This document shows, in pieces, positions 1 to 37,985 of a stretch of DNA of 64,000 bases. A model generated the notes under the pieces. It was not told the origin of the DNA. It made no database searches and saw only the letters and a program-made list of their open reading frames with translations. Made by a program: the position numbers and the translations under genes. This DNA comes from Obrimoposthia wandeli (Eukaryota). Location: positions 1 through 64,000 of the forward strand of contig CDROCS010006580.1 in the NCBI GenBank assembly GCA_977020255.1. The letters are read 5' to 3'. Every line of letters begins with the position of its first letter. Position 1 is the stretch's first letter.

Positions 1-818
1 GTTAACAAACCGTTAGTTAACATGTGTTTCTTGTGCCTGTCATAAAAGTACTGAGCACTGGGACCTCAGGTAGAGGAGTATATCAATATTAGGTGGATGG
101 AATCATTAGGGGTATGTGAGTTTATATAATTAAGTAAATAATTTAATATCGGCTTTTAACAATTTTGAAATACAAAATAGACTTAAAGTAATCAGTCTTA
201 ATGATTACAAGTGGGTGACTCTTGTCAATTTCGAAATGTTTACCTTGGGGAGTATTCGATGTCTTCTCCTCCTATTTCATTCACTTGAGCTTCTATCGGA
301 GTTGAATCTCAGTTTTCAAAAAAGTATCCTCAGCGTCTGAATTTCGTCTTTCAATTTTATTTGATATTTCCCTCACTCCCTCTTTTTTGTATTTCCAACC
401 TGTCAATAGTATTCAATGGATTATGGATTTTACATTTCTCATGACTCAAGTCGCACACTACCTCAGATTTACTGGTTTTGCTTTACAATGTTGATTCCCC
501 ATGATTCTGTGCTTCCATAGCATTCCTCTACCCCTTGCTGCATCAAGTTGACACCGCAGCTAACCAGTTCTGCTAGTCAGCCCCACATCACTTGACTTCC
601 AAGGTCATCTGAGGCAACCTGAGTTTGATGAACTCATTCATTGGGTTAATTAATTTACCACCACATATCTGTATTTTTGGTTGAATTTTGTATTTGAAAA
701 TTTAGTTTGATATATAATTTTTTTTCATTTGGCACACAAAATTTACCTTTAGGAAGGACTTCAAATTACAACAATTTATTTAACTACAAAATTTATTTGT
801 ACATTTCTGGACCTCACA

Positions 819-1720
819 AGTAGGTAGAAGGATGGAGTCTGAACCACTTGACCCCCGAAAGGGTGACATACCATAAGGATGTCTCGCCACACCATAAGGT
901 ATATATTTGCCTCACCTTCGGTGACCCAACGCCTACCCTTATGTATGGCAAAATTACCCACTTATGGTATGACACTGCTAGAAGGAAGGCAGGAGGCAGG
1001 AGGCAGGGAGGGAGGGAGGTCAAGTGATCTAGACTCCACCCTTCTGCGGCTATAATCTATGGTTGTCCATAATTCAAAGGGTCAAGTGGTCTGATCTCCC
1101 ACCCCTTCTTTTTGTGATATACCACTATGAAGGGTCAATTGAGAAGCCAGTCTCCACCCCTTCTTTTTGAGAATCTCTCCATATAGAGAAGGGTCAATTG
1201 GCTTAGTCTCCACTCTTCTTTTTGAGATATACCACTGTAAGAGGTCAATTGGCTTAGTCTCCACCCTTCTTTTTGAGATATACCACTATGAAAGGGTCAA
1301 TTGGCTTAGTCTCCACCCTTCTTTTAGTGATCTCGTCTCACCCTTCTTTTGGTGATCCCTAGTCTCCACCCTTCTTTTTAGTGATCCCCAAGTCTCACCC
1401 CTTCTTTTTTGTGGTCTAGTCTCCACCCTTCTTTTTGAGATATACCACTATGAGAGAAAAGGATCAAGTGGCTTAGTCTCCACCCTTCTTTTTGTGATCT
1501 AGTCCATAATGAGAAAATTTAGGATAAAGTTCACGCACACCAGTCAGAATGTATGACGTAATCATACACACACTATTCTATGTAATTTAGGCTAAGTTCA
1601 CTCTTATAAGTTAATGAATGTATTACATGTCCACACACATACTATTTTATGTGAAATTTAGATAAAAGTTTTCCTAGGCTTTCCTGATATAAATTATGAT
1701 AAAATTTCTTTAAATAACTT
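819..1720 (+). repeat. Polinton terminal inverted repeat, right-end (PolB-side) variant
   Basis: Collinear with the reverse complement of 39650-40738: terminus, CACCATAAGG motifs, purine/G tract, GGTCAA(G/T)TGGCTTAG(A/T)CTCCA motif, GGTTGTCCATAATTCAAAGGGTCAAG, then inner ACACACTATTCTATGTG units. Confidence 0.85.
1077..1500 (+). repeat. Minisatellite of ~51-bp units followed by ~27-30-bp sub-units
   Basis: Unit approx AAGGGTCAATTGGCTTAGTCTCCACCCTTCTTTTTGAGATATACCACTATG. The ORF at 1167-1355 shows the matching 17-aa periodicity. Confidence 0.9.
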
Positions 1721-1749
1721 CAATTATATATTAAAATAAAAATAAAAAT

Positions 1750-1869
1750 GAAGAAAGTGAGAGAATAATACAAATTAAACACATTTATTATGTAATTTCA
1801 TAATATCATCATCAAACTTAAGTGAATAACATTTTACAAAGTAGAAAGTCCATTCTTTTATACATTCTT
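1750..1869 (-). pseudogene. POLB: pPolB 3'-end fragment with internal deletion (left-arm copy)
   Basis: Reverse complement of 15001-15130; matches 39294-39356 joined to 39581-39645. Confidence 0.85.
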
Positions 1870-1957
1870 TCGTTTCAACATGACTAAGTTACAACAAGGA
1901 ATTAATAGAAAATTAGTAAAAATATTAATTTATTTGAATATTTGAATGAGAGTTTGA

Positions 1958-4900
1958 AGTGTCGATAGTTTGATTGAATGCAAGTGTAATTTAGACTATA
2001 AGTAAATTAAAATAGAGTTTTGTTGAATAAATTATAGTTAGATTGAATACAAGTATGACGAGCAAGTGATTGATAGTTTGAATTTTCAATATTACAAGTA
2101 AATTAAGGTTTAACAAGCGAATGTAATTTTAAAAATAAAGAGTGTCGATAGTTTGAATCGAGACAAGTGTAATGTAGTCTATAAGTAAATTAAAATAGAG
2201 TTTTTGTTGAATAAATTATAGTTAGATTGAATGCAAGTATGACGAGCAAGTGATTGATAGTATGAATTTCAATACAAGTAAATTAGGTTTAGCAAGTGAA
2301 TGTAATTTTAAAAAATAAGAGTGTCGATAGTTTGATTGAATGCAAAGTGTATTTAGACTATAAGTAAATTAAAATAGAGTTTTTTGTTGAATAAATTATA
2401 GTTAGATTGAATGCAAATTATGACGAGCAAGTGATTGATAGTTTGAATTTTCAATACAAGTAGAATTAGGTTTAACAAGCAGATGTAATTTTAAAAAATA
2501 AAATTATTAATCGATAGTTTGATTGAATGCAAGTGTAATTTAGACTATAAGTAGAATTAAAATAGGGTTTTATTTGAATAAATTATGAATTTAGATTAGA
2601 TACAAGTATGACGAGCAAGTGATTGATAGTTTGAATTTTCAATACAAGTAGAGTAAGGTTTAACAAGTGAATGTAATTTTAAAAATAAAGTGTCGATAGT
2701 TTGATTGAATGCAAGTGTAATTTAGACTATAAGTAAATTAAATAGAGTTTTGTTGAATAAATTATAGTTAGATTGAATGCAAATTATGACGAGCAAGTGA
2801 TTGATAGTTTGAATTTTTCAATACAAAGTAAGTGGAGTTTAACAAGTGAATGTAATTTTAAAAATAAGAGTGTCGATATTTTGATTGAATGCAAGTGTAA
2901 TTTAGACTATAAGTAAATTAAAATAGAGTTTTTGTTGAATAAATTATAGTTAGATTGAATGCAAGTATGACGAGCAAGTGATTGATAGTTTGAATTTTCA
3001 ATACAAGTAAGTGGGTTTAACAAGTGAATGTAATTTAAAATAAGGTGTCGATTTTTGATTGAATGCAAGTGTAATTTAGACTATAAGTAAATTAAAATAG
3101 AGTTTTTGTTGAATAAATTATAGTTAGATTGAATGCAAGTACTTATGACGAGCAAGTGATTGATAGTATGAATTTCAATACAAGTAAATTAAGGTTTAGC
3201 AAGTGAATGTAATTTTAAAAATAAGAGTGTCGATAGTTTGATTGAATGCAAGTGTAATTTAGACTATAAGTAGAATTAAAATAGAGTTTTGTTGAATAAA
3301 TTATAGTTAGATTGAATGCAAGTATGACGAACAAGTGATTGATAGTTTGAATTTTCAATACAAGTAAAGTGGGTTTAACAAGTAGATATAATTTTAAAAA
3401 TAAGAGTATCGATAGTTTGGATTGAATGCAAATTAATAATTTAGACTAAAGTAAATTAAAATAGAGTTTTTTGTTGAATAAATTATAGTTAGATTGAATG
3501 CAAGTATGACGAGCAAGTGATTGATAGTATGAATTTCAATGTACAAGTAAAAATTAAGGTTTAGCAAGTGAGATGTAATTTTTAAAAATAAGAGTGTCGA
3601 TAGTTTGATTGAATGTAAGTGTAATTTAGACTATAAGTAAATTAAAATAGAGTTTTTGTTGAATAAATTATAGTTAGATTGAATGCAAGTATGACGAGCA
3701 AGTGATTGATAGTTTGAATTTTCAATACAAGTAAGTGGGTTTAACAAGTGAATGTAATTTTAAAAGTAAGAGTGTCGATAGTTTGATTGAATGCAAATTC
3801 GCCAATTTAGACTATATAAGTAAATTAAAATAGAGTTTTTGTTGAATAAATTATAGTTAGATTGAATGCAAGTATGACGAGCAAGTGATTGATAGTTTGA
3901 ATTTCAATACAAGTAGATGGGTTTATCAAGAGAATATAATTCTAAAAATAAAGTGTCGATAAGTTTTGATTGAAATGCAAATTATAATTTAGACTATAAG
4001 TAAATTAAAATAGAAGTTTTGTTGAATAAATTATAGTTAGATTGAATGCAAGTATGACGAGCAAGTGATTGATAGTATGAATTTCAATACAAGTAAGTGG
4101 GTTTAACAAGTGAATGTAATTTTAAAAATAAGAGTGTCGATAGTTTGATTGAATGCAAGTGTAATTTAGACTATAAGTAAATTAAAATAGAGTTTTTGTT
4201 GAATAAATTATAGTTAGATTGAATGCAAGTATGACGAGCAAGTGATTGATAGTTTGAATTTTCAATACAGTAGTGGGTTTAACATGTAGAATGTAATTTT
4301 AAAAAATAAAATTAGCCGATAGTTTGATTGAATGCAAGTGTAATTTAGACTATAAGTAAATTAAAATAGAGTTTTTGTTGAATAAATTATAGTTAGATTG
4401 AATACGAGTATGACGAGCAAGTGATTGATAGTATGAATTTCAATACAAGTAAGTGGGTTTAACAAGTGAATGTAATTTTAAAAATAAGAGTGTCGATAGT
4501 TTGATTGAATGCAAGTGTAATTTAGACTATAAGTAAATTAAAATAGAGTTTTTTGTTGAAAAAATTATATTAAGATGGAATCCAAGTATGACGAGCAAGT
4601 GATTGATAGTTTGAATTTTCAATACAAGTAAGTGGGTTTAACAAGTGAATGTAATTTTAAAAATAAGAGTGTCGATAGTTTGATTGAATGCAAGTGTAAT
4701 TTAGACTATAAGTAAATTAAAATAGAGTTTTTGTTGAATAAATTATAGTTAGATTGAATGCAAGTATGACGAGCAAGTGATTGATAGTTTGAATTTTCAA
4801 TACAAGTAAAGTGGGTTTAACAAGTGAATGTAATTTTAAAAATAAAGAGTGTCGATAGTTTGATTGAATGCAAGTGTAATTTAGACTATAAAGTAAATTA

Positions 4901-7900
4901 AAATGAGTTTTTGTTGAATAAATTATAGTTAAGATTGAATGCAAGTATGACGAGCAAGTGATTGATAGTATGAATTTCAATACAAGTAAGTGGAGTTTAG
5001 CAAGTGGATGTAATATTAAAAAAAATAAGAGTGTCGATAGTTTGATTGAATGCAAGTGTAATTTAGACTATAAGTAAATTAAAATAGAGTTTTGTTGGAA
5101 TAAAATTATAGTTAGATTGAATGCAAATTATGACGAGCAAGTGATTGATGGTTTGATTTTTCAATACAAGTGAAGTGGGTTTAACAAGTGAATGTAATTT
5201 TAAAAAATAAAGAGTGTCGATAGTTTGATTGAATGCAAAGTGTAATTTAGACTATAAAGTAAGAATTAAAATAGAGTTTTTGTTGAATAAATTATGGTTA
5301 GATTGAATGCAAGTATGACAGGCAAGTGATTGATAGTATGAATTTCAATACAAGTAAGTGGGTTTAGCAGAGTAGATGTAATTTTAAAAATAAGAGTGTC
5401 GATAAGTTTTTAGTTGAATGCAAGTGTAATTTAGACTATAAGTAAATTAAAATAGAGTTTTTGTTGGATAAATTATAGTTAGATTGAATACAAGTATGAC
5501 AGGCAAGTGATTGATAGTTTTCAATACAAGTAAAATTAGGTTTAACAAGTGAATGTAATTTTAAAATAAAAGTGTCGATAAGTTTGATTGAATGCAAGTG
5601 TAATTTAGACTATAAGTAAATTAAAATAGAGTTTTTTGTTGAATAAATTATAGTTAGATTGAATGCAAGTATGACGAGCAAGTGATTGATAGTTTGAATT
5701 TTCAATACAAGTAAGTGGAGTTTAACAAGTGAATGTAATTTTTAAAAATAAAATTGTCGATAGTTTGATTGAATGCAAGTGTAATTTAGACTATAAGTAG
5801 AATTAAAATAGAGTTTTGTTGAATAAATTATATAGTTAGATTGAATGCAAGTATGACAAACATTGATGATTGATAGTATGAATTTCAATACAAGTAAGTG
5901 TGGTTTATGAAGTGAATGTAATTTTAAAAATAAGAGTGTCGATAGTTTGATTGAATGCAAGTGTAATTTAGACTATAAGTAAATTAAATTAAGTTTTTGT
6001 TGAATAAATTATAGTTAGATTGAATACCAAGTATGACGAGCAAGTGATTGATAGTTTGAATTTTCAATACAAGTAAATTAGGTTTAACAAGTGAATGTAA
6101 TTTTAAAAAATAAGAGTGTCGATAGTTTGATTGAATGCAAAGTGTAATTTAGACTATAAATATAATTTAAAATAGAGTTTTTTGTTGAATAAATTATAGT
6201 TAGATTGAATGCAAGTATGACGAGCAAGTGATTGATAGTATGAATTTCAATACAAGTAAATAGGTTTAGCAAGAGAATGTAATTTTAGAAATAAGCGAGT
6301 CGATAGTATGATTGAATACAAGTGTAATTTAGACTATAAAGTAAATTAAAATAGAGTTTTTGTTGAATAAAATTATAATTTAGATTGAATGCCATTATGA
6401 CGAGCAAGTGATTGATAGTTTGAATTTTCAATACAAGTAAAATTAAGGTTTAACAAGTGAATGTAATTTTAAAAATAAGAGTGTCGATAGTTTGATTGAA
6501 TGCAAGTGTAATTTAGACTATAAGTAAATTAAAATAGAGTTTTTGTTGAATAAATTATAGTTAGATTGAATGAAAGTATGACGAGCAAGTGATTGATAGT
6601 TTGAATTTTCAATACAAGTAAATTAAGGTTTTAACAAGTGAATGTAATTTTAAAAATAAGAGTGTCGATAGTTTGATTGAATGAGAGTGTAATTTAGACT
6701 ATAAGTAAATTAAAATAGAGTTTTTGTTGAATAAATTATAGTTAGATTGAATGCAAGTATGACGAGCAAGTGATTGATAGTATGAATTTCAATACAAGTA
6801 AGTGGGTTTAGCAAGTGAATGTAATTTTAAAAATAAGAGTGTCGATAGTTTGATTGAATGCAAGTGTAATTTAGACTATAAGTAAATTAAAATAGAGTTT
6901 TTGTTGAATAAATTGATTAGATTGAATGAAGTATGACGAGCAAGTGATTGATAGTTTGGATTTTCAATACAAGTAAGTGGGGTTTACAAGTGGATTTAAT
7001 TTTAAAAAATAAGAGTGTCGATAGTTTTGATTGAATGCAAGTGTAATTTAGACTATAAGTAAATTAAAATAGAGTTTTTGTTGAATAAATTATAGTTGAT
7101 TGAATGCAGAATTATGACGAGCAAGTGATTGATAGTATGAATTTCAATACAAGTAAGTGGGTTTAGCAAGTGAATGTAATTTTAAAAATAAGAGTGTCGA
7201 TAGTTTGATTGAATGCAAGGTAATTTAGACTATTATTAAATTAAAATATAATTTTTGTTTAATAAATTATATATAGATTGAATACCAGTACTTGTGAGCA
7301 AGTGATTGATAGTTTGAATTTTCAATACAAGTAGAGTGGGTTTAACAAGTGAATGTAATTTTTAAAAAATAAGAGTGTCGATAGTTTGATTGAATGCAAG
7401 TGTAATTTTAGACTATAGAGTAAAATTAAAATAGAGTTTTTGTTGAATAAATTATAGTTAGATTGAATGCAAGTATGACGAGCAAGTGATTGATAGTACA
7501 ATTTCAATATTTAAAGTAAAGTGGGTTTAGCAAGTGAATGTAATTTTAAAAATAAGAATGTCGATAGTTTGATTGAATACAAGTGTAATTTTAGACTATA
7601 AGTAAATTAAAATAGAGTTTTTTGTTGAATAAATTATAGTTAGATTGAATAAATTATGACGAGCAAGTGATTGATAGTATGAATTTCAATACAAAGTAAG
7701 TGGGTTTTAGCAAGTGAATGTAATTTTTAAAAATAAGAGTGTAGATAGTTTGATTGAATGCAAGTGTAATTTAGACTATAAGTAAATTAAAATAGAGTAT
7801 TTGTTTAATAAATTATAGATTGATTGAATGCAAGTATGACGTGCATGTAATTGATAGTTTGAATTTTTCAATACAAGTAAGTGGAGTTTAACAAGTGAAT

Positions 7901-8145
7901 ATAATTTTAAAAATAAAATTAATCGATATTTTGATTGAATGCAAGTGTAATTTAGACTATAAGTAAATTAAAATAGAGTTTTTGTTGAATAAATTATAGT
8001 TAGATTGAATGCAAGTATGACGAGCAAGTGAGTGATAGTTTGAATTTTCAATACAAGTAAGTGGGTTTAGCAAGTGAATGTAATTTAAAAAATAAGAGTG
8101 TCGATAGTTTGATTGAATGCAAGTGTAATTTAGACTATAAGTAAA
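1958..8145 (+). repeat. ~180-bp satellite array (sat1), about 34 monomers
   Basis: Monomer begins GTGTCGATAGTTTGATTGAATGCAAGTGTAATTTAGACTATAAGTAAATTAAAATAGAG and recurs about every 180 bp (e.g. near 4135, 4315, 4495, 4675). Confidence 0.97.
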
Positions 8146-9935
8146 TATTATGCATATATTAACTTTAATATGTTGTAACTTATTACTTTAATATAATTTT
8201 CAACAAAAACTTCAAGTAGTTTACTTATTAATCATAAGTTTAATGTTTTGTACAATAAATTGACTTGTAAACATAATTTATTTTGATATATTTTCAATTT
8301 AATATGTTGTAAGTTATTACTTTAATATAATTTACAACAAAAACTTCAAGTAGTTTACTTATTAAACATAAGTTTAATGTTTTGTACAATAAATTGACTT
8401 GTAAACATAATTTATTTTGATATATTTTCTATTTAAACTCTATTTGTAGTTATTGCTTTAATATAATTTACAACAAAAAAACTTAAGTAATTTACTTGTA
8501 AGCTACAATATTTATTTGTTGTTGTATATATTTAGTTTAAAATGTTGTAAGTTATTACTTTAATATAATTTCAACAAAAACTTCAAGTAGTATACTTATT
8601 AAACATAAGTTTAATGTTTTGTACAATAAATTGACTTGTAAACATAATTTATTTTGATAATTTTTTCAAATTTAATATGTTGTAAGTTATTACTTTAATA
8701 TAATTTAACAAAAACTTCAAATGGTTACTTATATTAAACATAAGTTTAATGTTTTGTACAATAAATTGACTTATGTAAACATAATTTTTTTGATATATTT
8801 TTTCAATTAATATGTTGTAAGTTATTACTTTAATATAATTTACAACAAAAACTTCCAAGTAATTACTTGTAAACTACAATATTTATTTGTTGTTGTATAT
8901 ATTTAGTTTAAAATGTTGTAAGTTATTACTTTAATATAATTTTCAACAAAACTTCAAGTAGTATACTTATTAAACATAAGTTTAATGTTTTGTACAATAA
9001 ATTGACATGTAAACATAATTTATTTTGATATATTTTCCATTTAATATGTTGTAAGTTATTACTTTAATATAATTTACAACAAAAACTTCAAATAGTTTAC
9101 TTATTAAACATAAGTTTAATGTTTCTTGTCAGTGACTTATAACATAATTTCAATTTAATTGTGAAGTTATATATTTTCAATTTAATATGTTGTAAGTTAT
9201 TACTTCATATAATTTACAACAAAACTTCCAAATAATTTACTTATAAACTACAATATTTATTGTTATTTGTATATATATTTTAGTTTAAAATATTTGTAAG
9301 TTATTACTTTAATATAATTTACAACAAAAACTTCAAGTAGTTTACTTATTAAACATAAGTTTAATGTTTTTGTACAATAAATTGACTTGTAAACATAATT
9401 TATTTTGATATATTTCAATTTAATATATTTGTAAGTTATTACTTTAATATAATTTACAACAAAAACTTCAAATAATTTACTTGTAACCTACAATATTTAT
9501 TTGTTGTTGTATATATTTAGTTTAAAATGTTTACTAAGTTATTACTTTAATATAATTTTCAACAAAAACTTCCAAGTAGTTTACTTATTAAACATAAGTT
9601 TAATGTTTTGTACAATAAATTGACTTGTAAAACATAATTTATTTTGATATATTTTCAATTTAATATGTTGTAGTTATTACTTTAACAATTTACAACCAAA
9701 AACTTCAAATGGTTGCTTATTAAACATAAGTTTAATGTTTTGTACAATAAATTGACTTGTAAACATAATTTATTTTGGTATATTTTCAATTTAATATATT
9801 TGTAAGTTATTACTTTAATATAATTTACAACAAAAACTTCAAGTAATTTACTTGTAAATTACAATATTTATTGTTGTTGTTGTATATATTCAGTTTAAAA
9901 TGTTTGTAAGTTAATACTTTAATATAATTTACAAA
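8146..9935 (-). repeat. Second satellite (sat2): ~134-bp and ~101-bp units, left-arm orientation
   Basis: Repeated AATATGTTGTAAGTTATTACTTTAATATAATTTACAACAAAAACTTCAAGTA followed by one of two alternative tails. Confidence 0.95.
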
Positions 9936-10029
9936 TATCGTAACAACCAAGTTAACTTACCAGATAACTGTGTAGTTAAGGTTATTTATCATTTAGTCTG
10001 AAACAATGAATACCGTCATAATCTACAAT

Positions 10030-11450
10030 GCACGTATAATTTTAATTGTCAACTACAGTAAACTATAATTACTCTTTGTGTACAGTAATAATTTCAATAT
10101 ATTAAAGTAAACATTTACAAAATATAATCTGTTTACAAGTCAATTTTATCTAACCTAAATCCTTAAATTATGACGTTAATAAGTATGAGCTACACTTGAA
10201 GTTTTGTTGATTTGTAAATATATTATGTTTACAATTTATCGTACAAATCATTAATATTATGATTATTAAGTAAACTATTTGAAGTTTTGGTTGTAAATTA
10301 TATTAAAGTAATAACTTACAACATATTAAAGTGAATATATGCAAAATTATATTATGTTTACAAGTCAATTTTCGAATGTCTAGTAAACAAAATTAAATAA
10401 CTCGAAAAAGCATTTACTATTCGAAATAATAAACTTAATAGTACTTTATATTTGAAATTTATGTTATATGCAGTGGGCGGGGTACAGCAACTAACTTTAT
10501 AATTAAAATATTTTTATAGTTTAAGGTTAAATATATACAACAACAAATAAATATTGTAGTTTACAAGTAAATTACTTGAAGTTTTTGTTGTAAATTATAT
10601 TAAAGTAATAACTTACAACATATTAAATAGAAAATATATCAAAATAAATTATGTTTACAAGTCAATTTATTGTACAAAACATTAAACTTATGTTTAATAA
10701 GTAAACTACTTGAAGTTTTTGTTGTAAATTATATTAAAGTAATAACTTACAACATATTAAATTGAAAATATATCAAAATAAATTATGTTTACAAGTCAAT
10801 TTATTGTACAAAACATTAAACTTATGTTTAATAAGTAAACTACTTGAAGTTTTTTTGTTGAAATTATATTAAAGTAATAACTTACAACATTTTAAACTAA
10901 ATATATACAACAACAAATAAATATTGTAGTTTACAAGTAAATTACTTGAAGTTTTTGTTGTAAATTATATTAAAGTAATAACTTACAACATATTAAATAG
11001 AAAATATATCAAAATAAATTATGTTTACAAGTCAATTTATTGTACAAAACATTAAACTTATGTTTAATAAGTAAACTACTTGAAGTTTTTGTTGTAAATT
11101 ATATTAAAGTAATAACTTACAACATATTAAATTGAAAATATATCAAAATAAATTATGTTTACAAGTCAATTTATTGTACAAAACATTAAACTTATGATTA
11201 ATAAGTAAACTACTTGAAGTTTTTGTTGAAAATTATATTAAAATAATAAGTTACAACATATTAAAGTTAATATATGCATAAATATATTATGTTTACAAGT
11301 CAATTTATTGTACAAAACATTAAACTTATGTTTAATAAGTAAACTACTTGAAGTTTTTGTTGAAAATTATATTAAAGTTATAACTTACAACATTTTAAAC
11401 TAAATATATACAACAACAAATAAATATTGTAGTTTACAAGTAAATTTTTG
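10030..11450 (+). repeat. sat2 array in inverted orientation (right arm)
   Basis: Reverse complement of the 8146-9935 units; 10541-10909 is repeated almost exactly by the next ~369 bp. Confidence 0.93.
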
Positions 11451-11743
11451 AATGTCTAGTAAACAAAATTAAATAACTCGAAAAAACATTTACTATTCGA
11501 AATAATAAACTTAATAATACTTTATATTTGAAATTTATGTTATATGCAGTGGGCGGGGTACATCAAATAACTTTATAATTAAAATATTTTTATAGTTAAA
11601 GGTTAAAATCACTTGATAAAAACCACAATAATGTGATAAAGAATATTATTTAACATATAAAATGAATTTTTGAAGAAATAAATTGAATATTCATATTATA
11701 TTAAACGGACAATGGCAAAAAAAAAAATATCAAGTAATTTAAA

Positions 11744-14700
11744 AATCAAACTATCGACACTCTTATTTTAAAAATTACATTCACTTGCTAAACCCAATTA
11801 CTTGTATTGAAATTCAAACTATCAATCACTTGCTCGTCATACTTGCATTCAATCTAACTATAATTTATTCCTTAAAAACTCTATTTTAATTTACTTATAG
11901 TCTAAATTACACTTGTCGTCATTCAATCAAACTATCGGCACTCTTATTTTTAAAATTACATTCACTTGCTAAAACCCACTTACTTGTATTTAAATTCACA
12001 TTCTTGCTGGCCCACTACTTATTAATTCTGACTATAATCACTTGCTCGTCATACTTGCATTCAATCTAACTATAATTTATTCAACAAAAACTCTATTTTA
12101 ATACTTATTTACTTATGAGTCTAATGCAGCACACTCTTATTTTATTACAAGTACTTACACTTCCCGCTAAACCCCTTACTTGTATGGTGAGAAGATTCAA
12201 ACTATCAATCACTTGCCTATACTGTGCTCATTCAATTTAACTACAATTTATCCAACCAAAACTCTATTTTCAATTTCTTATACTCTAAATCTCCCTTGCA
12301 TTCAATCAAACTATCGACACTCTTATTTTTAAATTACATTCAGCATTTAGCTAAACCCACTTGCTTTGTATTAAAGAAAATTCAAACCATATCAATCCAC
12401 TTGCTCGTCATACTTGCATTAATCATAACTTGCATTCAATTTATTCACTTCCACAAAAATTTATTCAACAAAACTCTCTTTTAATTTACTTATAGTCTAA
12501 GTGCAGCATTAAATCAAAATATCTTATTTTAATTGTTCATATAATACCAATTAAATTCATACTATCATCCTTAACCATGTACTTTGACACTCATCATAAT
12601 TTTTAAAAAATTACATTCACTTGTTAAAACTCTATTTTGTTCCCTTTATAGTCTTGTATTGAAAATTCAAACTATGTATCACTCAATCAAACTAGTCATA
12701 CTTGCATTTTTTTTAAAATTACAACTATAATTTATTCAACAAAAACTCTATTTTAATTTACTTATAGTCTAAATTACACTTGCATTCAATCAAACTATCG
12801 CACTCTTATTTTAAAATTACATTCACTTGTTAAACCCACTTACTTGTGAAAATTCAAACTATCAATCACTTGCTAGTCATACTTGCATTCAATCTATAAT
12901 TTATTCAACAAAAACTCTATTTTAATTTACTTATAGTCTAAATTACACTTGCATTCAATCAAACTATCGACACTCTTATTTTTTAAAATTACATTCACTT
13001 GCTAAACCCACTACTTGTGTGAATTTCATACTATCAATCACTTGCTCGTCATACTTGCATACAATCTAACTATAATTTATTCAACAAAAACTCTATTTTA
13101 ATTTACTTATAGTCTAAATTACACTTGTATTCAATCAAACTATCGACACTCTTATTTTTAAAATTACATTCACTTACTTGTATTGAAAATTCAAACTATC
13201 AATCACTTGCTCGTCATACTTGCATTCAATCTAACTATAAAATCTATTGTCCAACAAAAACTGAAAATTCAAACTGCAATCACGCCGTCGTCACTTGCAT
13301 TCAATCTAACTATAATTTATTCAACAAAAACTCTATTTTAATTTACTTATAGTCTAAATTACACTTGCATTCAATCAAACTATCGACTTTCTTATTTTTA
13401 AAATTACATTCACTTGCTAAACCCACTTACTTGTATTGAAATTCAAACTATCAATCACTTGCTCGTCATACTTGCATTCAATCTAACTATAATTTATTCA
13501 ACAAAAACTCTATTTTAATTTACATATAGTCTAAATTACACTTGCATTCAATCAAACTATCGACACTCTATTTTAAAATTACATTCACTTGCTAAACCCA
13601 CTACTTGTATTGAAATTCTACTATCATCACTTGCTCGTCATACTTGCATTCAATTAACTATAATTTATTCAACAAAAACTCTATTTTTAATTTACTTATA
13701 GTCTAAATTCACTTGTATCAAACTAAACTATCGACACTCTTATTTTTTAAAATTACATTCACTTATTAAACCCACTTACTTGTATTGAAAATTCAAACTA
13801 TCAATCGCATACTTGCTCGTCATGCGCACTTGCATTCAATCTAACTATAATTTATTCAACAAAAACTCTATTTTAATTTACTTATAGTCTAAATTACACT
13901 TGCATTCAATCAAACTATCGACACTCTTATTTTTAAAATTATTCGCTTGATTAAACCCACTTACTTGTATTGAAAATTCATATCAATCACTTGCTCGTCA
14001 TACTTGCATTCAATCTAACTATAATTTATTCAACAAAAACTCTATTTTAATTTACTTATAGTCTAAATTACACTTGCATTCAATCAAACTATCGACACTC
14101 TTATTTTTTTAAAAATTACATTCACTTGCTAAACCCACTTACTTGTATTGAAATTCATTCTATCAATCACTTGCTCGTCATACTTGCATTCAATCTAACT
14201 ATAATTTATTCAACAAAAACTCTATTTTAATTTACTTATAGTCTAAATTACACTTGCATTCAATCAAACTATCGACACTCTTATTTTAAATTACATTCGC
14301 TTGTTAAACCCACTTACTTGTATTGAAATTCATACTATCAATCACTTGCTCGTCATACTTGCATTCAATCTAACTATAATTTATTCAACAAAAACTCTAT
14401 TTTAATTTACTTATAGTCTAAATTACACTTGCATTCAATCAAACTATCGACACTCTTATTTTTTTAAAATTACATTCTCTTGTTAACCCACTTACTTGGT
14501 CAATTCAAACTATCAATCACTTGCTCGTCATACTTGCATTCAATCTAACTATAATTTATTCAACAAAAACTCTATTTTTAATTTACTTATAGTCTAAGCT
14601 TATTCATTGCTCGTCATTGCGACACTCTTATTTTTAAAATTACATTCGCTTGACACTTAAACCCACTTACTTGTATTGAAAATTCAAACTATCAATCACT

Positions 14701-14840
14701 TGCTCGTCATACTTGCATTCAATCTAACTATAATTTATTCAACAAAAACTCTATTTTAATTTACTTATAGTCTAAATTACACTTGCATTCAATCAAACTA
14801 TCGACACTCTTATTTTAAAAATTACATTCACTTGCTAAGA
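11744..14840 (-). repeat. sat1 array in inverted orientation, about 17 monomers
   Basis: Repeated CACTTGCATTCAATCAAACTATCGACACTCTTATTTT, the reverse complement of sat1; noisy or degenerate at ~11900-12700. Confidence 0.95.
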
Positions 14841-15000
14841 CTCTTACTTGTAAATGACATTCATACTTGCATGCATAATTTTATTCATTTACATTCATTC
14901 TACCTCTCATTTTATTCAAACTCTCATTCAAATATTCAAATAAATTAATATTTTTACTAATTTTCTATTAATTCCGTTGTAACTTAGTCGTTGAAACGAA

Positions 15001-15262
15001 AAGAATGTATAAAGAATGGACTTTCTTACTTTGTAAATGTTATTCACTTAAGTTTGATGATGATATTATGAAATTACATAATAAATGTGTTTAATTTTGT
15101 ATTATTCTCTGACTTCTTTCTTATTTTATTTTTTATTTTAATATATAATTGAAGTTATTTAAAGAAATTTTATCATAATTCTATAAATGTGAAAGCCTAG
15201 GAAAAACTTTGATCTAAATTTCACATAAAATAGTATGTGTGTGATTACGTAATACATTCTTA
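15001..15262 (+). pseudogene. POLB: pPolB 3'-end fragment plus inner part of Polinton TIR (right-arm copy)
   Basis: 15001-15063 matches 39294-39356 and 15065 onward matches 39581 onward. AGCCTAGGAAAAACTTTGATCTAAATTTCACATA...GATTACGTAATACATTC then matches the inner TIR. Confidence 0.88.
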
Positions 15263-15750
15263 ATTGGTTTAAAAGCGTACATGGAAAAAATTTTTTCAGA
15301 CAAATTATTATTTGAAGTCGAACATTATCGTTTATTTATATTTATTTCCCTACAACTCACAAGAACTCAGTACATGCGTAAGAAGCAGAAATGTTCAAAG
15401 TGAGTTTATCTTAGTCGAGATTGAGGGCGAAAATGCCCAAAGATGAACATTATCCAATCAGCATCATCGTGTCTCTAGCATCTAATGGGATTCCAGCGAT
15501 GGGTGAACAAGAAACATTAATCATCTCGGGATAACTAAATACTATTCAATGGCCTATGTCAATAGGTTGCTTGGAATTTCAATGAGATTTCCTAGAAACA
15601 GTATTAACAATTTTATCTGATACATCCATATTTTCTTTTTGTACATTCCATTTTTTTAATTCAAAAATCGTTGGATTATAACGACTGATAATGGCTAAAA
15701 AGAAAATGGTTCAAAAATATTCGTCTATTTGTGATAGTTGATCGGTTATT

Positions 15751-18800: not shown

Positions 18801-21569
18801 CAGTTTTCCTTCACAATGACTACAATAATTCTTCTATGTTACTGGTTAAATGTAGTTTTGATGAATCAAACATAGAACGCAATGAGAAACAATTCACAAT
18901 GATTAACTAGAATCAACTAAGTTTGAGTTATTTGTAGTGCTCTCAATGTTGTGGATCTTCCTCACATAAAAATTGGATACAGACAACACATGGGTTTCTT
19001 GTGATTGTGGGACAGCAGAGATAGTGTTAGTTACTCCACTGACGGAATAGGGTCGGTGTAAAAAGATTTAACTCGGTGAATACATCTAAGGTCACCTGGC
19101 TTTCTCCTCACATGAAACTGGATAAACGATCAGCCCGGTTTTGCAATAAATGTAACAGTAGTTCTCAGAAAAGGGTGTCAATTATTTTAGTGTAGTAATC
19201 TTAAAGCGTCTGACTTCATTGAGCATGGATATGATTTTCTGTGATGCAGCATGTTGATAGGAATGCATTTTCTTCATTGTCAACTGGAGTTTCTTACAGT
19301 GAAGATATAGAATCAAGAACGACGTGGTACAGCTATAATGGAGGATTCTTTAAAGAGAATCTGGTATACAATACAAATAACAGTCTAAATCTTTCAAATC
19401 AATAAATAGTGAACTATTTGACTGTTATTTAGTACAATACTTATCTACACGAGAAAAACAACTTTTGTATGAAATTTCTTCTTCAGCTAATCATGATTAT
19501 TTCAAATAATAAACCCCAATTTTTTTCTGAAATAATTTCTCATTATTTTCTTCGATCCAGGACCGTTTATTTATTGTTATTCTTATTTGGTCTAAACATA
19601 AGCCCTATAGTTTCAATGCATTCTCTTTTAGCCATTATTACTTTTTCAAATGTGGTTTTATACATTCAGATTTATTTGCATTTAAAAATAAATCTGTTCA
19701 CAAATCATTGACGAAAATCTATTTTATCTAACAGTGCAGTCCTAATTTGTGTAGAAGAAAAAGTTAAAATCCTGCTTCAATTTCAAACTTGACTTTACAA
19801 ACAGAGAAATTGGATTTTGAATTTTATTGTAGCGATAAAACTTGGATTTTTATTGTAGTACGTCAAGTAGTACAATCAAGATTTCATTCGGAAAAACTTG
19901 AATCATTGAGCACTCTAAATAGTTTGGCTTGTTTTTTTCTCTCATTTTAGTACTTGCTATTGTTGCATCTTGTAAATTAATCTCATTAATGAAACTACAA
20001 AGGGACAATTATGTGATTTCCGACTTTTTAATCTACTTCTCTCATTTTTACAACTAATTATTTAAACAATTGTTCATTGAAATTTGTCTCAGCGAATTTT
20101 AAGGAATCTAGTTCTTGGAACTGTTCCTTGGTTATCTTTAGAAAGAATGAGCCACGTATCAAATACCAGATGTTAAATGTCTAAAAATAAGTCTAATACT
20201 GTTTTTGGTAGTTTATTACTCAAAAGTGACCATAATTATTTTCGTAATTTGAGAATGTCTTGATCAATCTGCAGTCATCATCACTGCTTCTAAGCTGTTT
20301 AAACATGCTCACTTCATCAGGCTCGAGAAGATCATATATATTTATACATCATGTGGGATCTTAGATCCAATTTTGACATTGATCTCTAGCCAATGGAGCT
20401 AAATGTAGAAACTATAAAAGAGAGAACTTCAAACTTCTTATACAAAATAATTGACTGGTTAGCTACTTTCTTCCAAAAAAATGTGACACGTAACCCAGAT
20501 TAAAAAATGCAATGTATAAAATTAGTTCCAGACAAAAAGGGAATTTATAAACAATGAAGTCTTATTAAATCAAAATTTAGAGGTCAACAAGGTTATTTGA
20601 AAATCGAATCCATTAATTTTTTAAAACTTGAAGCTTCCTCAGATTCCACATTCTTCTTATTTTTTAGCATGAATACAAGCTATATTTCGCGAATTACCAG
20701 AAATTGAGGTTGTAACAGTTATTTTAATTGACTTTCTATATAATTCATTATTCAGTAAGCTGCATGTTGTTATTTTATATATTATATTATTTTGAGTTCA
20801 CATGAAAACCTTAAGAAATGTGATTTTTTTTTCAAAACACACCTGAAAACTATTGTTTTGTTTTATATCAATAATGCTTTGTGAATAAATCATGTAATTT
20901 ATTTCTTTTCACATCCTAAAACAATTCTATTTAATTAGTTTTCCAAAACGTAGTGGAATATAGATAAATGCTTTAAAATATTTGTTTATTTATAGCTTAA
21001 TGGATTTAATAATACAGGCTTATTTTCATTAAATTCCATGCTAGGGAAATATTACTGTACGTAATATGATTTTCCTAGTTTATATCAGATCAATTTGGGG
21101 AGTATTTAATTCTGTCTGTAAGTGTAGACAGATTCTTTTGTTGAAGCAATTCTCGGGAGAAGTAGATTCGTGGTGATCAATGGTTAGAATTTGTGAGAGT
21201 CTGGTTGGTAGGATATAAATTTGTGGTATTTTTTGTCTACCTCATTCCTCTATAATGTATATAGTAACATGAATTATTAAATATTTCCATGGACGTTTTA
21301 ACCATGGAATAAGATGGACAGTTTAGAGTGCTCCTTGAATTCAAGGTCAAATATATTAATTGAAAAATATTTTATTATTGTTTAAATAGAAAAATAATTC
21401 AAAATAATTTTGAATATTTTTTTGAATATGTTTATATTTAAAAAAATTGTATTCTATTTCACTCTTATTGGAATTTATAAGTTTAAACAAACTTAATATT
21501 TTAAATGTAAATTGAAGTCAAAGAATATAATATCAATTATTTTTGCTTACAACTAATGTATATATTTTC

Positions 21570-24160
21570 AATTTATTGTAAACGACAGTAAACTATCAAT
21601 TACTTTTTATGTAATGGAATATTACAGTAATAACTTACAACATATTAAACTAAATATATACAAAATATATTATGTTTACAAGTTAATTTATTGATCAAAT
21701 CATTAAAATTATGATTAATAAGTAAAGTACTTGAAGTTGTTTGTTGTAAATTATATTACAGTAATAACTTACAACATATTAAATTGAAAATATGCAAAAT
21801 TATATTATGTTTACAAGTCAATGTATTGTACAAAACATTAATATTATGATTATTAAGTAAACTACATGAAGTTTTTGTTGTAAATTATATTACAGTAATA
21901 ACTTACAACATATTAAACTGAATATATGCAACAACAAATATTATGTTTACAAGTCAATTTATTGTACAAATCATTAATATTATGATTATTAAGTAAACTA
22001 CTTGAAGTTTTTGTTGTAGATTATATTGAAGTAATAACTTACAGCATATGAAAGTGAATATATGCAAAAATATATTATGTTTACAAGTCAATTTTCGAAT
22101 GTAAAGTAAACAAAATTAAATAACTCGAAAGAAATTTTAATATTTGAAAGAATAAACTTAATAGAAACTTATATTTGGAATTTATATTATATGCAGTCTG
22201 CGTGGTACTTTAGCTACTAACTTTATGATTAAAATATTTTTATAGTTTAAAGATAAAATCACTTGATACAAAACCATAATAATTTGGCAAAGAAATATTG
22301 TTTAATATATAAAATGAATTTTTGAAGAAATAAATTGAATATTCATATTATATTAACAAGACAATGGCAAAAATATCAAGTAATTTAATTATATATATTT
22401 TTATGCGAAGTTTATTATTATACTAATTAACGTCCTAAGTTACAATTTCAGTGATACTCTATAACTCTTATTCATTTACACATTCGGTATTACTAACTTT
22501 TTTAGTTACTCTTTTTATCACTTAGTATCATTTTAAACCATAATATCTAACTCTTATTAACTATTATTCACTTGATACTCTTAATTTTATTATTTTATAA
22601 AATAAATAAAAAAAAGATTATTTAGAAAGTTGAATAATATATTGAGGTATTAAGATGATAATCTAATATGTTTGAAGAAGTTGTTTTATTTGCATATTAA
22701 ACAATGTGATTAAAGATTTGGTATTATAATTTAACGACAAAGCTTTCAGTTTGTTTTCATTTATTTTCATGTCTTTGAAAATAATTTTACAATATTCAAT
22801 ACACAGAGAATAAAATTGTTTGTTGAGTTAATTTACTAAATTTGTATATTTATAAATATATTTTAGAATAGTTAAAAAGAGAAACGAATAATGATAATTT
22901 CAAATTATATTTATGAATATATTTGTATAATCAAGTTATTTGAAAATAAAGAATTCAAATTTATCTAATTATTTAAAAATATTTAAATTATGGAATGTTA
23001 TTAAACGAGATAAGACATTTTAATTATTTAATTGCATGAGTATATATGAACTGTTAACTTTAGAGCAAGTACATTAAGGTAAAAGATGTGAAAATAAAAT
23101 ATGAAAGTTCACATCTTAATTATTATAATTTCATCAGATTGTTACATCATCTTCATTGATTGATAGTATTAATTTAATAATTAGCTAGTACTCACTTACA
23201 GTTTTACATTCACTTATAAAGACTCTTACTTGTATTCGTATTCGCTTGCATCCATACTTGCATTTATTTACATTCATTCTAACTCTCATTATTCAAACTA
23301 GCATTCAAATTCATTGATATTTTTACTAATTTTCATTCATACCTTCAAACTTAGTGTTTTTTCTATTAATCTCGCTGTAACTTAGTCGTTCTAACTTTTA
23401 ATATTATTCAGTATCACTGCTTCTTATAGTTGCTTACTTGTTATTAATCTAACTGTCACTTTATATAAATTGTATTCATACGAATTCTCTTTTTTAATTT
23501 ACTTAGAGTATAAATTACACTCGCATTCAATCATACTCTCGACACTCTTATTATTTTTTTTCCAAATACATTCACTTGCTAAGACTCTTACTTGTATTTG
23601 CATTCTCTTGCATTCATACTTTCATTCATTTACATTCATTCTAACTCTCATTATTCAAACTAGCACTAAAATTCATTAATATTTTTACTAATTTTCGTTC
23701 ATACTTGCAATAGTATTCTTTCTTACTTGTACTTGTAACTGCATTCATTCATACTTGTACTTAAATTCATTGTTAATTGTACTTGCTTTATTTACATTTA
23801 CACTTGTATTAATTCATACAATCGATAATTAATTTTATGTGTTCTTACAAGACATTTTAATTATATTTTAGAAAGTCGAATAATAAATCGAAATACTAAG
23901 TTGATAATCGAATATATACATAATTTGATTTGTTTACATATAAAATAATATAACTAAATATTTTGTATTTTAATTTATAAAAAAAACTTTCAGTAACTTT
24001 GAATAACATGACGTCTTTCAAACATTCATAAGAAAAACTGTCAGCAAAGATGGTTTAGAACCACATAACTTTTAAACATTCCTGGGTTGAGCTGGGCAAG
24101 TGCTAATGTTAAAACATAAAGTTGAACTGATGCAGGATCCTGAAATATACATGATTTCTG
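21570..24160 (+). mobile_element. Older degenerate Polinton derivative with a few sat2 units, the spacer, 1-2 sat1-like monomers and a PolB fragment
   Basis: 21570-22090 is homologous to 10030-10380; 22098-22380 to 11455-11740; 23200-23395 to 14820-14992. 23470-23600 resembles one sat1 monomer. Confidence 0.75.
24009..24159 (+). pseudogene. POLB: pPolB internal fragment
   Basis: Aligns to 38132-38291 (GATGGTTTAGAACCAC...CATTCCTGGGTTGAG...GTTGAACTGATGCAGGATCCTGAAAT) with small deletions. Confidence 0.88.
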
Positions 24161-32724: not shown

Positions 32725-33895
32725 AGTAGGTACTTTGATGGAGTCTAGACCACTGGGGGGGGGTCCCCCTTGTGTGCGCACACCAAGTTAAAGGGTGTCA
32801 CACCATAGAAATGTCACACCATAAGGTGTCAAACCATAAGGGTATATGTTGCCTCACCATAGGGGTGTCTTGCCACACCATAAGGGTCTGGCTCAGAAAG
32901 GTTATGAAGGTTTGAAGGTATGGTCGTGACCGTCTATGATCGGCCAACATACCCAAGGGGTTGTGGTCGTCCATAGGTCAAAGGGTCGGACTTAGTTTGG
33001 ACTTGAAACTTTGAAGGTATAATTAAGGTCAACTATGGTCGGCCAACATACCCAAGGGGTTGTGGTCGTCCATAGGTCAAAGGGTCGGACTCAGTTTTGA
33101 CTTGAAATCTCTTGAAGGTATAATTGAGGTCAACTATGGTTGACCAACACATCTAAAGCGGGTCATGGACGTCCATAATTCAAAGGGTCAAGGTCAGTTT
33201 TGACTTGAAACTTTGAAGGTATAATTAAGGTCAACTATGGTTGGCCATCACATTTAAAGGGTTGTGGTCGTCCATAGGTGAAAGGGTCGGGCTAAAAACA
33301 AAGTCAAGTTTAAAATATCAAGGTTTTAGTACATGGTTGGAATCATCTTTAGAAGGTGAATTCACCCATAAAGTATGGTCGGTCATATATGAAGGGGTCG
33401 GGATATAGACCAAATCAAGTTTTAAATGTCAAAGTTTGAATACATGGTTGTAATCATCTTTAGAAGACGAATTCATCCATATAGGTATGGTCGTCCATAG
33501 ATGAAGGGTTAAAAAATATTGGAATTTCATAGTTTCAAGTACATGGTTGTATTCGTCAACATATTACGAGTTTAATCATGTAAAAATTTTTTGGTCGTTC
33601 ACAAGGTAAGGGTCAGATTTGGCATAAGTTAAGGAATTATATAGTAATTAATCAATTATTCTATGTGAAAGTTCACTCTTATCAGTTAAGGAATGTATTA
33701 CGTAATAACACACACACTATTATATGTGAAAATTTAAGCTAAAGTTCACTCTTATCAGTTAAAGAATGTATTACGTAATAATACGCACACTATTCTATGT
33801 GAAAATTTAGATCAAAGTTTTTTCCAGGCTTATGCATCTAAAGAAATATGGTAAAATTTATTTAAATAACATAAATTATATATTAAAATCAAATA
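32725..33895 (+). repeat. Left TIR, with internal ~100-bp (x4), ~115-bp and ~62-bp tandem units
   Basis: Reverse-complementary to 39650-40738, e.g. CCATAAGGGTCTGGCTCAGAAAG vs CTTTCTGAGCCAGACCCTTATGG and GGCTTATGCATCTAAAGAAATATGGTAAA vs TTTACCATATTTCTTTAGATGCATAAGCC. Confidence 0.92.
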
Positions 33896-33911
33896 TCATT
33901 AATGAATATAT

Positions 33912-34364
33912 TTATATACAATTTATATAATCAATACATAGAGAAAAACATTTCAAATAAGCACAATGTTTTCCGTGTTTTCTAAACAGACATCGAATAT
34001 TTTTTGGCATTTTCTTTAAATTTTTGAAACTTTTATTATAATTCACAATTCTCAAATTTGGAAACATTCGTTTCACTAAATTAATTTTCTTTCCATCAAT
34101 AGAATCCATAACATAGAATATTGTTTCAACATCATCAATATGAATATCAGAGCTTTCACCTTCAAACCAGGATAACTGATGATGATGATTTATCAAATAT
34201 AGATTTTTTCTTTTAACTGTAAATGATAAACTACTCCATGGTATTTGATTTTTAAACACGTAATGAAATGGACAAGTCATATCATTCACATACATTATAC
34301 ATAATTTCTTTGGAATATATTGTCCATTATTATCAATAAAACATTCTAAATCAATAAAAGCCAT
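33912..34364 (-). CDS. Polinton accessory protein (~150 aa from MAFIDLECF); possible DEDD/DnaQ-like nuclease fold with C-terminal C/H motif
   Basis: The ORF track gives 175 aa from a non-ATG start at 34439; the first ATG is at 34364. It has an N-terminal FIDLECF acidic motif, HHHQLSWFEG and C-terminal CLFRKHGKHCA. The fold assignment is inference. Confidence 0.6.
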   Translation of the reverse strand: MAFIDLECFIDNNGQYIPKKLCIMYVNDMTCPFHYVFKNQIPWSSLSFTVKRKNLYLINHHHQLSWFEGESSDIHIDDVETIFYVMDSIDGKKINLVKRMFPNLRIVNYNKSFKNLKKMPKNIRCLFRKHGKHCAYLKCFSLCIDYINCI

Positions 34365-34414
34365 TTGAAAAATTAAATGAAATACTATAATGATATATTT
34401 GTTTATACTTAAAA

Positions 34415-34753: not shown

Positions 34754-34787
34754 TTAAATAAAGAATATAATATAAAATAAGCTTACT

Positions 34788-36008: not shown

Positions 36009-36010
36009 TT

Positions 36011-36406: not shown

Positions 36407-36443
36407 TTTATATATTTTTATATTTTAAATATATTTATATTGT

Positions 36444-37457: not shown

Positions 37458-37490
37458 TATTCAATTTGAGAAGCGAATATACAAGAAGGT

Positions 37491-37967: not shown

Positions 37968-37985
37968 TCATTAAATGTCCTCTAG

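What the first reader, a model, noticed from the sequence alone, without database searches (positions are those of the whole stretch)
819..15262. ~14.4-kb foldback made of two head-to-head copies of the Polinton PolB-side end: a possible snap-back defective Polinton genome
Seen: the structure starts at 819 with the exact Polinton terminus. Both arms carry the same deleted PolB 3' fragment with an identical junction (GATGATGA|TATTATG, 39356 fused to 39581) beside inner-TIR sequence. Both satellites are mirrored about ~9935-10030. Both arms are of the right-end type, so this is not a normal element with left and right ends. Known: Polintons are thought to replicate by protein-primed strand displacement via TIR panhandles, and linear viruses produce snap-back defective genomes. 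Inference: template switching made a palindromic, gene-less genome that needs only termini in cis. Restoring the missing ~0.8-kb outer right TIR gives ~15 kb, within the usual Polinton size range, so the satellites might act as stuffer DNA for packaging.
Basis: partly seen in the sequence, partly recalled or inferred. Interest (0 to 1): 0.85.

Follow-up and report, generated by a model that had tools for sequence, protein, structure and literature searches.

The report
Gene-less palindromic parasite of Polinton elements
This stretch is one poorly sequenced copy of a real, young family of gene-free jumping elements made of two mirror-image copies of one end of a virus-like Polinton transposon filled with tandem repeats; it likely spreads by borrowing Polinton enzymes, but the copy lengths argue against the repeats being packaging filler.

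Summary
The structure is real but belongs to a family, not to this locus alone. Its PolB deletion junction occurs 118 times in the genome. Twenty-nine copies have two full arms and their own 6-bp target duplications (27 perfect, 2 at 5/6). Both arms are the PolB-side end, and arms of one copy are more alike than shuffled pairs, even 2-4 kb inside, so they are repeatedly copied onto each other. A 5.5-kb precursor-like copy with single repeat units, and five PolB-less helper/satellite hybrids sharing one breakpoint, give a plausible lineage. The stuffer idea is not supported: gene-bearing Polintons here are 11.6-13.3 kb, not 15 kb, and satellite copies span 2.7-34 kb (median 8.4; 5 of 29 near unit length). 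The window copy is noisy contig-end sequence (94% to family versus 99% for mid-contig copies), lacks its right end and target duplication, and its interior may be partly misassembled. The scan noted this family before in this genome, and similar elements in others. Whether arm copying happens outside the chromosome (snap-back) or by gene conversion is unresolved.

The parts
813..818 (.). 6-bp left flank CTCACA (would-be target duplication; no partner at the right end)
   Evidence: same 6 bases before the same terminus on contig C2732
819..1745 (+). Left terminal inverted repeat: AGTAGG terminus, ~51-bp repeats (1076-1508), inner TIR with 73-bp repeats (1509-1745); same TIR subtype as several gene-bearing Polintons
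1746..1869 (-). PolB 3'-end remnant with a 224-bp internal deletion (39356 joined to 39581), pointing outward
   Evidence: junction 21-mer has 118 exact genome hits
1870..1957 (+). 88-bp spacer from the non-coding cassette, present in both arms of family copies
1958..8146 (+). ~181-bp tandem array, about 34 units (0.2-2 kb in most other copies)
8154..9934 (+). 134-bp tandem array with a 371-bp higher-order unit
9935..10075 (+). 141-bp non-mirrored central segment; its junction to the 134-bp array is shared by 15 other contigs
10076..10531 (-). Short inverted 134-bp repeats plus a partial copy of the 293-bp block (10374-10531); the junction that follows was found in no other fetched locus
10528..11447 (-). 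Inverted 134/371-bp array
11450..11742 (+). 293-bp block; mirrored in both arms of many family copies but only on the right here
11744..14921 (-). Inverted ~181-bp array, about 18 units; 12019-12818 is very noisy (74-81% to the best other copy)
14916..15263 (-). Right arm: spacer, PolB remnant with the same junction, inner TIR cut off at 15263; outer ~0.8 kb and target duplication absent
21484..24159 (+). Separate fragment of the older derivative family: same non-coding cassette with few repeat units, next to a PolB piece
32725..40738 (.). 8.0-kb internally deleted Polinton with TACTAT target duplication (protease-like, double-jelly-roll capsid-like, integrase piece, 3' part of PolB); reference for the ends and the PolB remnant

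Best explanation
This is a truncated, error-rich copy of a multi-copy, gene-less family whose members consist of two inverted copies of the PolB-side end of a Polinton around tandem arrays; they carry Polinton ends and 6-bp target duplications and are likely copied and inserted in trans by the polymerase and integrase of the gene-bearing Polintons of the same genome. Likely history: (1) a deleted Polinton picked up a ~2-kb non-coding cassette with single copies of both repeat units and had its PolB-side end copied onto the other end (C3075 type, 5.5 kb); (2) further deletions shortened PolB and the cassette; (3) the whole TIR-PolB remnant-cassette half was copied onto the other end by fold-back; (4) the two units expanded into arrays. 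Arm-to-arm copying has recurred on several branches, most simply when the displaced single strand of a replicating linear molecule pairs its long arms and one arm templates the other. The satellites are passengers of free length, not stuffer. Shown: structure, independent insertions, arm concordance, precursor-like and hybrid forms, lengths. Inferred: trans-mobilisation, order of events, and that the copying occurs during replication outside the chromosome.
For: 118 exact junction hits, 59 per strand, 0 in the reversed control; all 22 same-contig pairs among the 100 listed are inverted. 22 of 27 loci with both termini called have 6/6 TSDs and 2 have 5/6; five more two-arm copies have 6/6. Among 60 flanks the only cross-locus matches were two pairs that involve the excluded composite loci. 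Gene-bearing copies share the same TIR subtype and carry integrase (rve, E 4e-10), an A32-like ATPase (E 8e-6), PolB (E 7e-21) and a DJR-like capsid; the capsid ORF has at least 102 matches at 97-100%. Arm concordance: within-copy distance 0.0087 versus 0.0236 permuted, 0 of 10,000 shuffles (25 copies). It holds outside the natural TIR: PolB remnant + spacer 0.0036 vs 0.0050 (29 copies) and the 293-bp block 0.0067 vs 0.0166 (12 copies), 0 of 10,000 each; the partner arm shares the minority variant in 38 of 43 carriers versus 6.8 expected. C3583 is a near-pure 2,723-bp palindrome with a perfect TSD. C3075 has 1.1-kb inverted ends that include undeleted PolB 3' end, single repeat units and a TSD. 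Five hybrids (capsid/integrase/ATPase half plus satellite arm) share one breakpoint and have five different TSDs. Mixed-arm copies keep perfect TSDs (C1265, C3587, C1084), whereas chimeric Galileo copies lack them (PMC3573991, passages).
Against: No extrachromosomal, protein-capped or packaged form was seen; no raw long reads were available. Arm concordance is incomplete: 3 of 25 copies have arms over 3% apart, and 10 of 29 exceed 2.5% in the inner TIR alone. Conversion between arms in the chromosome predicts the same concordance, and related copies are not independent events, so the shuffle counts are not probabilities. Six copies with perfect TSDs keep only 36-295 bp of one arm, so long arms may not be needed, or are lost after insertion. 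The origin of the cassette is unknown (no match over 40 bp in 16 fetched stretches of gene-bearing copies). C2084 is a perfect mirror including its flanks, so foldback artefacts do occur in this assembly.
Confidence: 0.6

Rival explanations
1. Same family and same borrowed integrase, but arm extension and homogenisation occur in the chromosome by break repair or gene conversion between the inverted ends, as proposed for Galileo; no viral-type snap-back step is needed.
For: Galileo shows TIR extension into internal sequence, tandem repeats inside TIRs and chimeric copies, explained by repair from the opposite TIR (PMC3573991, passages). Partial concordance, mixed-arm copies and one-arm deletions with different breakpoints fit patchy post-insertion repair.
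Against: Mixed-arm copies and hybrids keep their TSDs, and one hybrid breakpoint was amplified to five loci, so rearranged forms were themselves replicated. Concordance reaches 2-4 kb inward across a tandem array. Neither point excludes conversion without crossover.
Confidence: 0.25
2. A packaged defective-interfering genome whose satellites act as stuffer to reach capsid size.
For: Intact vertebrate Mavericks vary only about 10% in length, read as a capsid constraint (PMC8097293, passages). Only 2 of 29 two-arm copies are under 5.8 kb although two bare arms need about 2.5 kb; with 23 broken copies as lower bounds the median rises to about 9.3 kb. The five PolB-less hybrids are 10.2-11.3 kb, near unit length.
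Against: Unit length is 11.6-13.3 kb in five gene-bearing copies. Two-arm copies run 2.7-34.5 kb, median 8.4 kb, CV 0.61; 5 of 29 fall in 10.5-14.6 kb and 21 are under 9.5 kb. No particle evidence.
Confidence: 0.08
3. A composite transposon: two neighbouring derivative copies inserted head-to-head were mobilised together by their outer ends.
For: Composites exist (C6413 and C2666 have unlike arms and no TSD) and these elements often sit in other Polintons.
Against: No internal terminus or internal target duplication at the centre of typical copies; the inner boundary of the mirror differs between subtypes; both arms share derived variants on many branches, which one founding composite cannot give.
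Confidence: 0.04
4. The palindrome is an assembly or read-foldback artefact.
For: True for details of this copy: contig-start sequence at median 94% identity and 8 gap openings per 400 bp, versus 99.0-99.5% and 0-1 for two mid-contig copies; three junctions unique to it; right junction not bridged by 31 letters on both sides in any listed contig piece. C2084 has mirrored flanks.
Against: 29 other copies with unrelated flanks and direct 6-bp TSDs; a foldback read gives mirrored flanks, not a direct duplication.
Confidence: 0.03

Closest known systems
Polinton/Maverick elements (PMC8097293, PMC6431247; passages read)
   Same: AGTAG-type end motif, long TIRs, 6-bp TSD, PolB-derived sequence; same TIR subtype as gene-bearing copies in this genome.
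   Different: No genes; both ends are the PolB-side end with arms extended far past the TIR; filled with two satellites; free length. The defective copies in PMC8097293 are described as degraded fossils, whereas these amplified after losing their genes.
Tetris foldback element of Drosophila virilis (PMC4079207; abstract and section 10 read)
   Same: Non-autonomous, modular long inverted arms (flanking domain, tandem-repeat domain, inner domain), variable non-coding middle, repeats expanding to kb arrays.
   Different: Tetris has 8-10 bp TSDs and no identified autonomous partner in the passages read; here the partner is a co-resident Polinton, and precursor-like and hybrid forms are present.
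Galileo 'two recombinant TIR' non-autonomous copies, Drosophila mojavensis (PMC3573991; passages)
   Same: TIR extended by copying internal sequence from one end to the other; tandem repeats in the TIR; chimeric copies.
   Different: P-superfamily cut-and-paste element with 7-bp TSD and TIRs up to about 1.3 kb; its chimeras lack TSDs. Here mirrored arms reach 2-4 kb and mixed-arm copies keep TSDs.
Copy-back / snap-back defective viral genomes (PMC13506859; passages)
   Same: One genome end duplicated in reverse, no coding capacity, helper dependence (inferred here).
   Different: Described there mainly for RNA viruses and as free genomes. A strict snap-back is palindromic almost throughout; most copies here have a non-mirrored centre, closer to copy-back. 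These are integrated and inherited; interference and packaging are untested.

Membership tests
Polinton/Maverick (autonomous) | Encodes pPolB, integrase, ATPase, protease, capsid proteins | tested here: not met
   No ORF of 150 aa or more in 819-15263; only a ~120-bp PolB remnant per arm
Non-autonomous Polinton derivative | Polinton terminal motif at both ends | tested here: met
   Family: both termini called at 27 of 31 loci. Window copy: left end only
Non-autonomous Polinton derivative | 6-bp target-site duplication at independent loci | tested here: met
   22 of 27 at 6/6, 2 at 5/6, 3 without; five more at 6/6. Absent in the window copy
Non-autonomous Polinton derivative | Gene-bearing partner with the same ends in the same genome | tested here: met
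   Same TIR subtype on gene-bearing copies; integrase, ATPase, PolB, DJR-like capsid
Non-autonomous Polinton derivative | Mobilisation in trans shown directly | not testable with these tools
   Inferred from ends, TSDs and low divergence between copies
Foldback-type element (Tetris/Galileo structure) | Long modular inverted arms with internal tandem repeats and variable non-coding middle | tested here: met
Snap-back / copy-back defective genome | Both ends are copies of one parental end | tested here: met
   PolB remnant points outward in both arms
Snap-back / copy-back defective genome | Near-complete palindrome (strict snap-back) | tested here: inconclusive
   Met by C3583 only; other copies have a non-mirrored central array
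Snap-back / copy-back defective genome | Replicates as a free molecule, is packaged, interferes with helper | not testable with these tools
   Only assembled contigs of four runs of one sample were available
Stuffer-sized packaged defective genome | Lengths cluster at helper genome length | tested here: not met
   5 of 29 within 10.5-14.6 kb; median 8.4 kb versus 11.6-13.3 kb

The most novel reading that the evidence does not exclude
An inherited, integrating copy-back parasite of a Polinton: a gene-less linear replicon whose multi-kb arms re-template each other during protein-primed replication, which recombines with its helper to spawn PolB-less capsid-bearing hybrids and seeds satellite arrays across the genome. 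Its sequence record would be a direct footprint of the still unobserved free-replicating stage of animal Polintons.
Probability: 0.4. Interest if true: 0.75.

Novelty: new variant of a known kind. Interest (0 to 1): 0.52.

Why it matters
Animal Mavericks have not been seen as particles (PMC8097293, abstract listing), and their replication model rests on analogy with adenoviruses. A young gene-less family with a unique junction marker, a precursor-like form, helper hybrids and measurable arm-to-arm copying makes three questions testable: whether Polinton DNA replicates as a free linear molecule with paired ends, how little end sequence is needed in cis (36-295 bp survive in one-arm copies), and whether length is constrained. 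It also links Polintons to the birth and dispersal of satellite DNA and explains many contig breaks in this assembly. Structurally it repeats a known foldback layout, and the scan has noted similar elements before, which tempers the surprise.

Tried and rejected
Read support. Four runs of one sample, all assembled contigs. At the right junction two contigs match the window from 15252 onward with only 12-15 letters on the element side, short of the tool's 31-letter bar. At the left junction one 54-bp contig covers 30 flank and 23 element letters, and most of the flank was uncovered. Both are inconclusive; summed depths were not used as copy numbers.

An allelic full copy of this locus was not found: the right flank is unique and the left flank leads only to the C2732 end. 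Shared 6-mers between loci (GTCCTG, TACTAT, AATTTT) are not allelism, as their flanks did not match.

No Rfam family in 800-24400. The cassette has no real match in gene-bearing copies. A Helitron origin for it was considered from a recalled 3'-end resemblance and was not tested. The capsid ORF gave nothing in Pfam, PDB sequences or PHROGs; its label rests on the Atlas feature match (0.98, DJR-like family on 15-65% of cluster members; recognition score below the tool's bar). A single-sequence fold was submitted and not finished when checked; it is not used.

Rows dropped before counts: C2084 (mirrored flanks), C6413 and C2666 (unlike arms, no TSD), the window copy (noisy), C2508 and C1581 (one terminus not called). 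18 of the 118 junction hits were not listed and not examined. Two of the longest copies (C1991, C552) contain unidentified non-satellite middles of about 7.6 and 23.5 kb and were kept at full length.

Literature: nine searches listed no paper describing a palindromic gene-less Polinton family. The original Polinton paper and two reviews were not held; from memory, non-autonomous Polintons are already known from that work and from Repbase, which I could not check. No supplements were read.
Full report
OBSERVATION. Self-comparison and repeat finding confirm the main anatomy. The element starts at 819 with the Polinton terminus. The left arm runs through a TIR (819-1745), a ~120-bp PolB 3' remnant pointing outward, an 88-bp spacer, about 34 units of a 181-bp repeat (1958-8146) and a 134/371-bp array (8154-9934). 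After a 141-bp non-mirrored segment come the inverted 134-bp repeats, a 293-bp block, about 18 inverted 181-bp units and the inverted spacer, PolB remnant and inner TIR, cut off at 15263. The PolB junction (39356 joined to 39581 of the Polinton at 32725-40738) is the same in both arms. There is no ORF of 150 aa or more and no Rfam match. The mirror is not exact, and the outer arm is a different TIR subtype from the neighbouring Polinton.

QUALITY OF THIS COPY. The left flank and arm also end contig C2732, with the same CTCACA flank, at only 89.5% identity. The C2732 version is 1 of 450 sites from family members, 35 of 439 from the window's left arm, and 99.4% identical to the window's right arm. 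In 37 pieces of 400 bp the window copy is a median 94% identical to its best family match, with 8 gap openings; two mid-contig copies score 99.0-99.5% with 0-1, and the window's own Polinton about 99%. Three junctions of this copy were found in no other fetched locus, while two are shared by 15 and 43 contigs. Short-read contigs did not bridge either outer junction by the tool's standard. So the array sizes, the interior duplication and the right truncation of this copy are unverified.

IT IS A FAMILY. The left arm matches at least 40 loci. The junction 21-mer has 118 exact hits, 59 per strand and none in the control; the 22 same-contig pairs among the 100 listed are all inverted. Of 31 loci examined, 27 had both termini called: 22 have a perfect 6-bp target duplication, 2 have 5 of 6, and 3 have none (one mirror with inverted flanks, two composites). 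Five further two-arm copies have perfect duplications, giving 29. The typical layout is TIR, PolB remnant, spacer, 181-bp array, 293-bp block, central 134-bp array, then the same in reverse. Divergence between copies is low (median 3%, many under 1%), so amplification is recent. Many copies run off contig ends inside the arrays.

THE LIKELY HELPER. Ten loci fetched around capsid hits gave five gene-bearing copies with both termini and TSDs, 11.6-13.3 kb long, in two TIR subtypes, one identical in kind to the finding's arms. One such copy carries integrase and A32-like ATPase domains; PolB and a weak adenoviral protease match come from the window's Polinton, and its 406-aa ORF resembles double-jelly-roll capsid clusters. 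That ORF has at least 102 matches at 97-100% identity. Shared ends and the 6-bp duplication typical of Mavericks (PMC8097293, passages) make trans-mobilisation the natural inference.

LINEAGE. C3075 is a 5,523-bp copy with a TSD whose inverted ends (1.1 kb) already include the undeleted PolB 3' end, and whose interior holds a non-coding cassette with single units of both repeats and the 293-bp block in the same relative orientation as in the family's arm. The window holds a fragment of this older type at 21484-24159. The finding's arm reads as a deleted version of that element's PolB-side half, duplicated in reverse. The order of events is inferred from structure, not from a rooted tree. Five hybrids join the capsid/integrase/ATPase half of a Polinton to a satellite arm at one breakpoint, each with its own TSD, so derivative and helper have recombined and the product spread.

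ARMS COPY EACH OTHER. In a tree of inner arms, left and right arms of the same copy pair on many separate branches. Mean within-copy distance is 0.0087 against 0.0236 for shuffled pairs, 0 of 10,000 (25 copies); 22 of 31 two-carrier variants are shared by the two arms of one copy. The effect holds beyond the natural TIR, in the PolB remnant plus spacer (29 copies) and in the 293-bp block 2-4 kb inward (12 copies). It is incomplete: three copies have arms from different subfamilies yet keep perfect TSDs, and 10 of 29 differ by over 2.5% in the inner TIR. Related copies are not independent, so these counts show recurrence rather than a rate. Pairing of long arms on a displaced strand during protein-primed replication (adenovirus-type model, from my own knowledge) explains this simply; repair from the opposite arm in the chromosome, as argued for Galileo (PMC3573991, passages), explains it nearly as well.

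STUFFER TEST. Two-arm copies span 2.7-34.5 kb, median 8.4 kb, quartiles 6.5-10.8 kb; 5 of 29 lie in 10.5-14.6 kb, 21 are under 9.5 kb and 3 are longer. Adding 23 broken or incompletely fetched copies as lower bounds moves the median to about 9.3 kb. A loose lower limit is not excluded, since only two copies are under 5.8 kb and the hybrids sit at 10.2-11.3 kb, and lengths may change after insertion.

COMPARISON AND NOVELTY. It works like a non-autonomous foldback element (Tetris, PMC4079207, abstract and section 10; extended-TIR Galileo copies) and is shaped like a copy-back defective genome (PMC13506859, passages), but it is built from Polinton ends. It is not an autonomous Polinton, and packaging or interference is untested. 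Nine literature searches listed no description of a palindromic gene-less Polinton family; three key papers were not held, and non-autonomous Polintons as such are known to me from memory only. The scan's notes report what appears to be this family elsewhere in this genome and similar elements in other genomes; these are unchecked leads, not support.

VERDICT. Real family, poorly assembled copy. New variant of a known kind; interest 0.52. Family and Polinton-type mobilisation about 0.93; arm copying during free replication 0.6 as part of the best explanation; chromosomal conversion 0.25; stuffer 0.08.

Noticed in passing
G000 C789:218487-229813, C138:296657-306934, C257:243622-254531, C2704:492397-502613, C2968:96861-107922: A family of PolB-less hybrids (10.2-11.3 kb): the capsid/integrase/ATPase half of a Polinton joined at one shared breakpoint to a satellite arm, each with its own TSD (four 6/6, one 5/6).
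   Followed up: partly
L090:2242-2799 (G000 C28): A gene-bearing Polinton copy carries a TBP-domain ORF (PF00352, E 3e-12) between the ATPase and PolB; the hybrids' breakpoint falls just beside it and they lack it.
   Followed up: no
window 21484-24159; L122 (G000 C3075:51927-57449): An older, abundant derivative family (40 of 3530 candidates scored, 88-91% identity) carries the same ~2-kb non-coding cassette with single or few repeat units; its origin is unknown.
   Followed up: partly
window 32725-40738: 8.0-kb internally deleted Polinton with TACTAT TSD; lacks the ATPase region, part of the integrase and the 5' part of PolB relative to 12-kb copies. Its capsid ORF has at least 102 near-identical genome matches.
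   Followed up: partly
G000 C205, C3414, C4576, C785, C3480, C2620: Copies with perfect TSDs in which one arm is reduced to 36-295 bp of the terminus, each with a different breakpoint.
   Followed up: partly
G000 C2084:42570-50322: Perfect mirror that includes 400 bp of flank at 100%: probable read foldback or inverted duplication in this assembly.
   Followed up: partly
window 15058 and 15267-15370: In four contig sets of one sample nearly all depth at 15058 carries the PolB letter, so the junction family is a small minority of PolB-end sequence. A second contig (depth 14.5 against 32.8) has other letters upstream of 15267, hinting at a 2:1 haplotype split.
   Followed up: no
G000 C3285, C1876, C2620, C6413: Several satellite-filled copies lie in or beside more diverged Polinton sequence (64-78% identity); possible target preference.
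   Followed up: no
window 1076-1508: The ~51-bp TIR repeats contain inverted copies of the terminal motif (internal terminus-like hits).
   Followed up: no
window 28538-29212: Exact 335-bp tandem duplication; may be an assembly duplication.
   Followed up: no
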